A DNA stretch of 64,000 nt, taken from sequence record NC_025447.1. One strand, given 5' to 3'. The translations under genes and the position numbers were made by a program. The first letter of the stretch is position 1; each line of letters starts with the position of its first letter. The notes below the pieces were generated by a model, which was given only the letters and a program-made list of their open reading frames with translations, ran no database searches and had not been told where the DNA came from. Shown in pieces: positions 31,134 through 31,466 of this stretch. This DNA comes from Escherichia phage 121Q.

Positions 31134-31466
31134 ATGCTAAAATTAAATATTCAAGGTAATGTTGATTTTACTACAGCAATTCAAGATGCAATTTACGATG
31201 GTGCTAAATGTCTTGAAAAGTTCCGTACTTCAACTGTAATGGATATTGAAGTTCATGTGAAGAAAGAGCATAAGTCTCAATACTCTGTGACTCTAACATC
31301 AGGTAGTAAATCAGTTACTGCCGATGCAGCAGATTTATACAAAGCAATTGGTGATTCATTTGAAAAAATGGAAACTGTATTCAGTAAAGACAAAAGCATT
31401 AAATTACACCGCCGAAACCATCCAGAACACCCAGTTCTTGATGATTTGACAGAAAACGAAGAGTAA
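31134..31466 (+). CDS. hpf: ribosome hibernation promoting factor (HPF/YfiA family)
   Basis: MLKLNIQGNVDFTTAIQDAI ... ADAADLYKAIGDSFEKM aligns by eye with E. coli HPF (MQLNITGNNVEITEALREFV ... GQDMYAAIDGLIDKL); AGGTAGG RBS. Confidence 0.7.
   Translation: MLKLNIQGNVDFTTAIQDAIYDGAKCLEKFRTSTVMDIEVHVKKEHKSQYSVTLTSGSKSVTADAADLYKAIGDSFEKMETVFSKDKSIKLHRRNHPEHPVLDDLTENEE

What the first reader, a model, noticed from the sequence alone, without database searches (positions are those of the whole stretch)
31134..31466. Phage-encoded ribosome hibernation factor (HPF/YfiA)
The 110-aa protein aligns by eye along its whole length with bacterial HPF. It is encoded just downstream of the lysis gene and ends at a strong terminator. 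A phage copy implies direct manipulation of host ribosome activity or 100S dimer formation during infection.
Basis: partly seen in the sequence, partly recalled or inferred. Interest (0 to 1): 0.55.

Follow-up and report, generated by a model that had tools for sequence, protein, structure and literature searches.

The report
Jumbo phage HPF/RaiA-like gene
This is a real jumbo-coliphage gene for a divergent relative of the bacterial ribosome-silencing proteins HPF and RaiA, but it is already annotated as such in public records and described in the literature, and nobody has yet shown what it does.

Summary
The 110-aa ORF at 31134..31466 (+) is real and belongs to the HPF/YfiA (Ribosomal_S30AE) family. 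Pfam scores 37.4 bits against a cut-off of 23.7. [quoted passage not shown]

The window is an Asteriusvirus jumbo coliphage (PBECO4/phAPEC6 type). RefSeq already names the 99%-identical PBECO4 protein "HPF/RaiA family ribosome-associated protein". The positional orthologue in Cronobacter phage GAP32 is listed in Mizuno et al. 2019, and the Sharanji paper lists this gene. The finding is therefore correct but not new.

New details from this work:
- The gene is old and inherited vertically in Rak2-like jumbo phages, always after a LysM-lysozyme gene and upstream of a CCA-adding enzyme.
- It is only about 25% identical to E. coli HPF and RaiA.
- It keeps about half of the known rRNA-contact basic residues.
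- Its roughly 20-residue tail (an RR motif, then an acidic end) resembles RaiA, not short HPF.
- No phage RMF was found.

The likeliest role is RaiA-like occupation of the decoding site of idle 70S ribosomes, rather than 100S formation. That is inferred, not shown. The only phage homologue ever tested (rv5) did not bind ribosomes.

The parts
31134..31466 (+). HPF/YfiA-family (Ribosomal_S30AE) gene, 110 aa. [quoted passage not shown]
   Evidence: purifying selection
31120..31127 (+). Shine-Dalgarno-like AAGGTAGG, 6 nt upstream of the ATG. Only 16 nt separate this gene from the stop codon of the lysozyme gene, so the two are probably co-transcribed.
   Evidence: sequence read; inference
30191..31117 (+). 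Upstream gene: LysM + T4-type lysozyme with an N-terminal hydrophobic segment. The TTG start at 30191 follows the RefSeq PBECO4 gp040 length; the mechanical ORF starts at 30158. It is the conserved 5' neighbour of the HPF-like gene across the jumbo-phage clade.
31475..31507 (+). Intrinsic terminator: 11-bp hairpin plus a T-rich tail, ending the lysozyme/HPF transcription unit.
31446..31474 (+). Sigma70-type promoter TTGACA-17-TATACT (11/12 match) for the downstream unit. Its -35 box lies in codons L105-T106 of the HPF-like gene and its -10 box abuts the terminator hairpin. The module is conserved across four phage lineages.
30030..30074 (+). Candidate promoters for the lysozyme/HPF unit (TTTACA-17-TAAAAT; TTGTAA-16-TGcTATACT). 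Temporal class not determined.
   Evidence: consensus matches only
30106..30132 (+). Conserved motif TGTAGAAAGTCC-n5-GGCTTTTGCA in the leader of the lysozyme gene, shared by seven jumbo-phage lineages. Probably a regulatory element of the unit that carries the HPF-like gene; function unknown.

Best explanation
The gene encodes a genuine but highly divergent HPF/YfiA-family protein. It has been inherited vertically within the Rak2-like jumbo phages (Asteriusvirus, Hallingskeid, the Munch group, Eneladusvirus, and Mimasvirus GAP32).

**Shown here:** family membership, fold, conservation, purifying selection, and the structure of the transcription unit.

**Inferred:**
- Like its cellular relatives, it sits in the tRNA/mRNA channel of the 30S subunit (A/P sites) of non-translating host ribosomes, using the basic face of helix alpha-2.
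- Its architecture matches RaiA/YfiA (core + extended alpha-2 + an RR motif + a flexible acidic tail), not short HPF, and the phages carry no detectable RMF. It therefore most likely holds idle ribosomes as protected, silent 70S monomers and competes with host HPF/RMF, rather than promoting 100S dimers.
- The likely benefit to a slow-growing 350-kb phage is keeping or shielding the host ribosome pool during a long infection or in starved hosts.
For: **Family membership**
- PF02482 above the gathering score for this protein and for all 15 clade members.
- Clade profile against PDB: HPF E 5e-17, YfiA E 4e-13.
- Foldseek top ~35 hits are all ribosome-bound HPF/YfiA/pY.

**A functional gene**
- dN/dS 0.12-0.27 at dS 0.4-1.2, tail included.
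- Conserved position between the lysozyme and CCA-enzyme genes in five genera or lineages.
- Gene GC 34.2%, equal to the window's 34.7%.

**Ribosome-contact residues** (listed in bioRxiv 10.1101/2025.10.07.680626)
- K80->K78, K87->K85, K89->K87 and position 29->K29 are kept, and are invariant within Asteriusvirus.

**RaiA-like tail**
- Phage R93-R94 align with RaiA R95-R96, which contact 16S rRNA and uS7 in YfiA.
- The YfiA alpha-2 basic track 80/83/87/91/95 maps to the phage as K/T/K/I/R.
- Every clade member ends in an acidic cluster like RaiA's EEVEEE.
- The YfiA tail runs towards the RMF site.

**No phage RMF**
- No RMF homologue in 50,697 phage records.
Against: - There is no experimental evidence for ribosome binding by any member of this clade.
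- The only phage HPF tested (rv5, a different and more host-like lineage) was absent from salt-washed 70S and 100S fractions and had no effect on 100S.
- R17, K23, K26, R83 and K91 are replaced by Q, G/E/D, C/S/A, T and I in Asteriusvirus. K26 and K91 are still present in the other phage lineages, so the Asteriusvirus copy is the most derived.
- The protein misses both NCBIfam equivalog cut-offs (TIGR00741: 30 against 40.9 bits; NF007780 HPF: 18 against 125 bits).
- By core sequence the clade scores slightly better against HPF than against RaiA (65 against 52 bits), so the RaiA-like assignment rests on the tail only.
- Part of the tail conservation (the 'LT' of DLTE) may be imposed by the embedded -35 promoter box.
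- RaK2 lacks the gene at this locus, and some SD-series records carry deletions in it. It may therefore be dispensable.
Confidence: 0.5

Rival explanations
1. Anti-hibernation decoy. The phage protein occupies the HPF/RaiA site only weakly or transiently. It displaces or excludes host HPF/RaiA/RMF so that hibernating ribosomes of stationary-phase hosts return to service for phage mRNAs. This is the hypothesis proposed by Mizuno et al.
For: - Proposed in PMC6375957.
- Loss of about half of the basic contact residues would fit weaker, reversible binding.
- The RaiA-like tail points at the RMF site.
- The rv5 homologue was not retained on salt-washed ribosomes.
Against: No direct evidence. It overlaps with the best explanation in binding site and differs only in affinity and outcome, which sequence cannot resolve. 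The invariant K29, K78, K85, K87 and R94, together with the low dN/dS, argue for a maintained binding surface.
Confidence: 0.2
2. Classical short-HPF function. The protein cooperates with host RMF to convert 70S into 100S dimers during infection.
For: The core sequence scores slightly closer to HPF than to RaiA.
Against: - It has a roughly 20-residue RaiA-type tail that short HPF lacks. In YfiA that tail heads towards, and is held to block, the RMF site.
- No phage RMF was found.
- The rv5 HPF had no effect on 100S.
- It is 110 aa with no long-HPF dimerisation domain.
Confidence: 0.08
3. Neofunctionalised fold. The protein keeps the HPF/dsRBD-like fold but no longer targets the ribosomal decoding site. 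It binds another RNA or protein instead, such as phage transcripts, tRNA, or a host defence factor, in keeping with the RNA-repair or tRNA theme of the neighbourhood.
For: - Only about 25% identity to host factors.
- Five contact positions are substituted.
- It scores below the NCBIfam equivalog cut-offs.
- The rv5 result was negative.
- Neighbouring genes encode a 2H-phosphoesterase-like protein, a CCA-adding enzyme, NUDIX, glutaredoxin and a macro domain, with an RNA ligase further upstream in relatives.
Against: The residues that remain invariant across the whole clade (K29, Y69, K87; K78 and K85 within Asteriusvirus) are the ones that contact rRNA in cellular HPF/YfiA. The RR motif matches a YfiA rRNA/uS7 contact.
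Confidence: 0.17
4. Spurious ORF, or a chance resemblance such as a dodecin-like fold.
For: A weak Dodecin hit of 21.9 bits, below its 22.5-bit cut-off.
Against: - The Dodecin hit appears in only 1 of 15 clade members, whereas PF02482 appears in all 15.
- dN/dS is 0.12-0.27.
- The gene has its own RBS and terminator.
- The orthologue is conserved across genera.
Confidence: 0.01

Closest known systems
GAP32_183 / AFC21633 of Cronobacter jumbo phage vB_CsaM_GAP32 ('sigma 54 modulation protein/ribosomal protein S30EA'), listed as a phage HPF in Mizuno et al. 2019, Nat Commun 10:752 (PMC6375957)
   Same: - Positional orthologue: lysozyme, (HNH genes), HPF-like, CCA-adding enzyme, NUDIX, glutaredoxin, macro domain.
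- About 110 aa.
- PF02482 member.
- Acidic C-terminus.
- Same Rak2-like jumbo-phage group.
   Different: Only 24% identical over the core. GAP32 retains K26 and K91 equivalents that Asteriusvirus has lost. It was never tested experimentally.
PBECO4 gp039 (YP_009150353.1, 'HPF/RaiA family ribosome-associated protein'), phAPEC6 gp292c ('ribosome-associated inhibitor A'), and Sharanji WNN14706.1
   Same: The same gene: 99%, 99% and 84% amino-acid identity, with identical context.
   Different: None of substance. These are database annotations and a one-line mention, with no functional data.
E. coli RaiA (YfiA, protein Y), 113 aa
   Same: - Same fold.
- Similar length.
- Extended alpha-2 followed by an RR motif (R95-R96 aligned to phage R93-R94) and a flexible acidic C-terminus.
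- K80, K87 and K29 equivalents are kept.
   Different: - 23% identity.
- R17, R23, K26, R83 and K91 equivalents are not basic in the phage protein.
- The NCBIfam RaiA model NF007654 is matched by 12 of 15 clade members, but it was not among the hits for this protein at E<=10.
E. coli HPF (YhbH), 95 aa, partner of RMF in 100S formation
   Same: Same fold. It is the best pairwise and profile match (26% identity; 65 bits). K80, K87 and K89 equivalents are kept.
   Different: HPF has no C-terminal tail. The phage protein has 15 extra residues. No RMF partner is encoded by phages. It scores 18 bits against the 125-bit equivalog cut-off.
rv5-like (Vequintavirinae) phage HPF, e.g. ABI79209; phrog_8990
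   Same: A phage-borne PF02482 protein of about 105 aa in large coliphages.
   Different: A separate lineage. It is about 43-44% identical to E. coli HPF and clusters among gammaproteobacterial HPFs. The window protein matches phrog_8990 at only 25 bits, against 253 bits for its own phrog_34864. The rv5 protein was tested and was not found on ribosomes.

Membership tests
HPF/YfiA superfamily (Pfam PF02482 Ribosomal_S30AE) | Sequence match to the family model above the curated threshold, over the whole domain | tested here: met
   37.4 bits against a gathering score of 23.7, covering profile positions 2-84 of 88. All 15 clade members match. Clade profile against PDB HPFs: E 5e-17.
HPF/YfiA superfamily (Pfam PF02482 Ribosomal_S30AE) | [quoted passage not shown] | tested here: met
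   AF2 elements E2-8, H14-30, E36-46, E49-56, E59-65, H68-94; pLDDT 77.8. Foldseek top ~35 PDB hits are all HPF/YfiA/pY.
HPF/YfiA superfamily (Pfam PF02482 Ribosomal_S30AE) | Basic rRNA-contact residues on alpha-2 and alpha-1 (E. coli K26, K/Q29, K80, R83, K87, K89, K91) | tested here: inconclusive
   Kept: K29, K78 (=K80), K85 (=K87), K87 (=K89). Replaced: C26, T81 (=R83), I89 (=K91), and also Q17 and G23. R83 and K91 also vary among the cellular homologues sampled.
HPF/YfiA superfamily (Pfam PF02482 Ribosomal_S30AE) | Binds the 30S A/P-site channel of vacant ribosomes and inhibits translation | not testable with these tools
   This needs biochemistry or cryo-EM. The only phage homologue tested (rv5, a different lineage) was not found in ribosome fractions.
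NCBIfam TIGR00741 (HPF/YfiA equivalog) | Score at or above the curated equivalog cut-off | tested here: not met
   30.0 bits against a cut-off of 40.9.
RaiA/YfiA subtype | C-terminal extension of about 20 residues beyond alpha-2, with basic residues (R95, R96) followed by a flexible acidic end | tested here: met
   The tail LHRRNHPEHPVLDDLTENEE aligns R93-R94 with RaiA R95-R96. Residues 95-110 are disordered in the model. An acidic terminus is present in all 15 clade members.
RaiA/YfiA subtype | Equivalog-level sequence match to RaiA (NF007654 / PRK10324) | tested here: not met
   No NF007654 hit for this protein at E<=10. Twelve of 15 clade members match it weakly (best E 3e-8).
RaiA/YfiA subtype | Stabilises 70S monomers and antagonises RMF/HPF-dependent 100S formation | not testable with these tools
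   Inference from the architecture only.
Short HPF (gammaproteobacterial, RMF-dependent) | About 95 aa, ending shortly after alpha-2, with no tail | tested here: not met
   The protein is 110 aa with a 15-20-residue tail.
Short HPF (gammaproteobacterial, RMF-dependent) | Equivalog-level match (NF007780 / PRK10470) | tested here: not met
   18.3 bits against a cut-off of 125.
Short HPF (gammaproteobacterial, RMF-dependent) | Works with RMF; a phage-encoded RMF partner would support this | tested here: not met
   tblastn of E. coli RMF against 50,697 phage records gave no match at E<=0.01. Host RMF could still serve as the partner.
Long HPF (Firmicutes type and others) | C-terminal dimerisation domain (about 180-190 aa in total) | tested here: not met
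   The protein is 110 aa, with only one folded domain predicted.

The most novel reading that the evidence does not exclude
The jumbo-phage protein is a dedicated ribosome shield or counter-defence factor. It is a RaiA-like plug, made from the conserved lysozyme/HPF unit, that occupies the decoding centre of idle host ribosomes. This would protect 16S rRNA and the A site from host abortive-infection nucleases or starvation-induced ribosome decay, and block host RMF/HPF 100S hibernation. It would act alongside the neighbouring RNA-repair and tRNA-maintenance genes (2H phosphoesterase-like, CCA-adding enzyme, RNA ligase, NUDIX, macro domain). If so, it would be the first demonstrated viral use of a hibernation-factor fold to preserve, rather than shut down, the host translation apparatus.
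Probability: 0.12. Interest if true: 0.65.

Novelty: already known. Interest (0 to 1): 0.25.

Why it matters
Phage-borne HPF/RaiA homologues are widespread. The E. coli HPF query finds 130 phage records, mostly rv5-like phages of about 130-140 kb plus a few others and at least one misfiled bacterial contig. The window-protein query finds 36 records of this jumbo clade. No function has been shown for any of them, and the single published test was negative.

This window adds no new kind of element. The clade it represents is still a reasonable experimental target:
- It is old, vertically inherited and under purifying selection.
- It has a RaiA-type tail.
- It sits in a conserved transcription unit.

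Showing whether it silences, protects or re-activates host ribosomes would answer a question left open since 2019: why large virulent phages carry hibernation factors.

Tried and rejected
1. **Dodecin-like protein.** The hit is weak and sub-threshold (21.9 bits against 22.5) and occurs in 1 of 15 clade members. Rejected.
2. **Recent capture from the host.** Rejected. Identity to E. coli HPF/RaiA is about 25%, gene GC equals phage GC, and the nearest relatives in 1.8 billion representatives are other jumbo phages.
3. **RaK2 ORF030 as an orthologue.** Not homologous; 13% identity in a poor alignment.
4. **Virion-packaged factor.** gp292c is not mentioned in the phAPEC6 virion proteome paper.
5. 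**Phage-encoded RMF partner.** None found.
6. **Net-charge argument for loss of RNA binding.** Uninformative, because E. coli HPF and RaiA are themselves near-neutral or acidic overall.
7. **Rfam and tRNA scans of the window.** Nothing found.
8. **RNAalifold on the conserved motif upstream of the lysozyme gene.** No consensus structure, although my sequence slices were imperfect.
9. **Expression timing.** Only consensus promoter matches are available, and no transcriptome for this clade was found.
10. **Functional work on phage HPF beyond Mizuno et al.** Literature searches found none.
11. **LysUE1 as the upstream lysozyme.** It is a different, 162-aa gene.

Full report
**1. The observation**

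The window carries an ATG..TAA ORF at 31134..31466 on the + strand, encoding 110 aa. It has an AAGGTAGG ribosome-binding site 6 nt upstream and begins 16 nt after the stop codon of the preceding gene.

Eight nucleotides after its stop codon lies an 11-bp G+C-rich hairpin (31475-31501) followed by a T-rich run. Its centroid energy is -17.2 kcal/mol and z = -4.7 against shuffles. The simple scanner called it only on the minus strand, because the A-tract and T-tract extend the stem. Other groups annotate the same site as a terminator.

The ORF, its whole-length resemblance to HPF and the terminator are therefore all real.

**2. Family membership**

- Pfam places the protein in Ribosomal_S30AE (PF02482) at 37.4 bits against a gathering score of 23.7, over nearly the whole model.
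- NCBIfam's HPF/YfiA equivalog TIGR00741 is matched along residues 3-92 but below its cut-off (30 against 40.9 bits). The HPF-specific model scores only 18 bits against 125.
- A single-sequence search of the PDB gives E. coli HPF as best hit, at a marginal E of 8e-4. A profile built from 15 members of the phage clade reaches E 5e-17 for HPFs and E 4e-13 for YfiA/RaiA.
- All 15 clade members hit PF02482.
- AlphaFold2 (pLDDT 77.8) predicts beta1-alpha1-beta2-beta3-beta4-alpha2 with a disordered tail from residue 95.
- The best ~35 Foldseek matches in the PDB are all HPF, YfiA or plastid pY, mostly taken from ribosome complexes.

The protein is a true member of the superfamily, but a divergent one: 26% identical to E. 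coli HPF and 23% to RaiA.

**3. What the window is, and what is already known**

The region is 97-99% identical in DNA to Asteriusvirus jumbo coliphages of about 350 kb (CRJP21, phAPEC6, SHEFM2K, G17, PBECO4).

Existing annotations of this gene:
- RefSeq's PBECO4 record names the 99%-identical protein 'HPF/RaiA family ribosome-associated protein'.
- phAPEC6 calls it 'ribosome-associated inhibitor A'.
- Sharanji, slurp01 and others call it 'sigma 54 modulation protein / S30EA'.
- Turkey5 calls it 'ribosome hibernation promoting factor'.

In the literature:
- The Sharanji paper lists it among translation factors.
- Mizuno et al. 2019 reported HPF genes in phages, including the jumbo Cronobacter phage GAP32 (AFC21633, 111 aa) and rv5-like coliphages.
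- They proposed that viral HPF might compete with host factors and prevent dimer formation.
- They found that rv5 HPF expressed in E. coli was absent from 70S/100S fractions and did not change 100S levels.

I confirmed that GAP32_183 lies at the syntenic position and is therefore the positional orthologue of the window's gene, although only 24% identical. I found no functional study of this clade.

**4. Evolution**

- An exhaustive profile search of 1.8 billion representative proteins found only 38 hits at E<1e-3. The nearest ones outside Asteriusvirus (P0012-P0015) belong to other ~350-kb phages: Salmonella phages Munch, 7t3 and SE_PL, and Klebsiella phage fENko-Kae01.
- The gene order is conserved in Asteriusvirus, Erwinia phage Hallingskeid, Munch, Eneladusvirus (Yen9-04, pEa_SNUABM_47) and GAP32. 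The order is: (RNA ligase) ... LysM-lysozyme, HPF-like, terminator ... CCA-adding enzyme, NUDIX, glutaredoxin/thioredoxin, macro domain.
- RaK2 has the same block without an HPF homologue.
- Gene G+C (34.2%) equals that of the window (34.7%).
- Pairwise dN/dS among Asteriusvirus orthologues is 0.12-0.27 at dS 0.4-1.2, and the tail is also constrained.
- E. coli HPF used as a query finds a different set of 130 phage records, mostly rv5-like, at about 43-44% identity. The window protein matches that family's PHROG at only 25 bits, against 253 bits for its own.

There are therefore at least two independent phage lineages of HPF. The jumbo-phage lineage is old and vertically inherited.

**5. Anatomy relevant to mechanism**

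A 2025 cryo-EM preprint names the contacts shared by HPF and YfiA: K80, R83, K87 and K91, plus K89, K26 and Q/K29. For YfiA it adds a basic track at 80/83/87/91/95, with R95/R96 touching 16S rRNA and uS7, and a flexible tail that runs towards the RMF site.

| E. coli position | Phage residue | Status |
|---|---|---|
| K/Q29 | K29 | kept |
| K80 | K78 | kept |
| K87 | K85 | kept |
| K89 | K87 | kept |
| R17 | Q17 | replaced |
| K23 | G23 (E/D in relatives) | replaced |
| K26 | C26 | replaced |
| R83 | T81 | replaced |
| K91 | I89 | replaced |

This mapping comes from a 45-sequence alignment. K26 and K91 equivalents survive in the Munch, Eneladusvirus and GAP32 copies, so the Asteriusvirus protein is the most derived.

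The phage tail (K90-L-H-R93-R94-N-H-P-E-H-P-V-L-D-D-L-T-E-N-E-E) aligns at a constant offset with RaiA's G92-E-A-R95-R96 ... EEVEEE. Every clade member has a [KR]-R motif or a basic stretch followed by an acidic C-terminus.

By architecture the protein therefore resembles RaiA/YfiA. By core sequence it scores slightly nearer HPF. It cannot be assigned to either orthologous group. No RMF homologue exists in the 50,697 phage records.

**6. Transcription-unit structure**

The 16-nt gap to the lysozyme gene suggests co-transcription from the 30023-30190 intergenic region. That region holds sigma70-like matches and a 27-nt motif, TGTAGAAAGTCC-n5-GGCTTTTGCA, that is conserved upstream of the lysozyme gene in seven jumbo-phage lineages but is unique within this window.

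At the 3' end, a near-consensus promoter (TTGACA-17-TATACT, 31446-31474) has its -35 box inside codons L105-T106 and its -10 box abutting the terminator hairpin. A transcript starting at about 31481 would lack the 5' arm of the hairpin and read on into the next gene.

This promoter-in-terminator module is conserved in Hallingskeid, Munch and Eneladusvirus. In Eneladusvirus it lies just after the stop codon. It may account for part of the 'DLTE' conservation in the tail. Phage A4 has lost the -35 box yet keeps the acidic tail. Expression timing could not be determined.

**7. The 'lysis gene' neighbour**

The upstream protein has an N-terminal hydrophobic segment, a LysM domain and a T4-type lysozyme domain. 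Its phAPEC6 orthologue Gp293 was not detected in virions, unlike lysozyme Gp241. That is compatible with an endolysin.

Asteriusviruses also encode a 162-aa T4-type lysozyme with demonstrated muralytic activity (LysUE1). Which of these is the lysis enzyme remains unproven.

**8. Verdict**

- **Shown:** this is a real, selected gene of the HPF/YfiA family, conserved in a clade of jumbo phages.
- **Inferred, about 0.5:** it binds the decoding channel of idle host ribosomes in a RaiA-like way, holding them as silent 70S monomers and antagonising RMF/HPF, rather than promoting 100S.
- **Rivals:** a weak-binding anti-hibernation decoy (0.2); a fold re-used for another target (0.17); classical 100S promotion (0.08).
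- **Novelty:** already known at the level of annotation and literature.
- **Interest:** low to moderate, because the function of phage HPFs is still an open and testable question.

Noticed in passing
window 31446-31507: A near-consensus sigma70-type promoter (TTGACA-17-TATACT) is embedded in the last codons of the HPF-like gene. Its -10 box abuts the terminator hairpin, so upstream transcripts stop and a new transcript starts inside the hairpin's 5' arm. The promoter + hairpin + T-run + RBS module is conserved in Hallingskeid, Munch, Yen9-04 and pEa_SNUABM_47. In the last two it lies after the stop codon.
   Followed up: partly
window 30106-30132 (and L004 ~3322-3350, L005, L007-L010): The motif TGTAGAAAGTCC-n4-5-G(G/A)CTTTGTGCA upstream of the lysozyme gene is conserved in seven jumbo-phage lineages, including RaK2. 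It occurs only once in this 64-kb window. It contains a possible AAAGTC/GRCTTT hairpin, but RNAalifold gave no consensus fold on my imperfect slices. It may be a gene-specific regulatory element.
   Followed up: partly
window 31134-31466 versus L011 (phage SP27): The gene is mosaic. The 5' two-thirds are diverged from SP27 (dS about 0.75), whereas the 3' third and the downstream DNA are identical. This indicates a recombination breakpoint inside the gene.
   Followed up: partly
L016 (Salmonella phage SD-15_S21) versus window 31231-31338: An exact 108-nt in-frame deletion inside the HPF-like gene, with flanks 100% identical to the window. Three other SD-series records show different truncations of the same gene. 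These are either assembly artefacts or evidence that the gene is dispensable.
   Followed up: partly
L007 (Klebsiella phage RaK2) 3040-5598: RaK2 keeps the lysozyme / CCA-enzyme / NUDIX / glutaredoxin block but has an unrelated 150-aa ORF (ORF030) where the other lineages have the HPF-like gene.
   Followed up: yes
window 29612-30022, 33066-34178, 34286-34687, 34689-34937: The neighbourhood has an RNA-maintenance theme: a weak 2H-phosphoesterase (2H-SAK) match, a CCA-adding tRNA nucleotidyltransferase, a NUDIX hydrolase and a glutaredoxin. Relatives also carry an RNA ligase and a macro-domain gene in the same block.
   Followed up: partly
window, whole; + strand: All 13 exact TTGACA-N16-18-TANNNT matches in the window lie on the + strand (6.5 expected over both strands). 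Five are clustered at 48992-50159, which suggests a host-RNA-polymerase (early) promoter cluster.
   Followed up: no
P0011 (1605 aa, from the representative library): A protein made of about 29 tandem copies of a ~54-aa unit matched the profile strongly. It looks like an assembly or rolling-circle artefact, not a relative.
   Followed up: no
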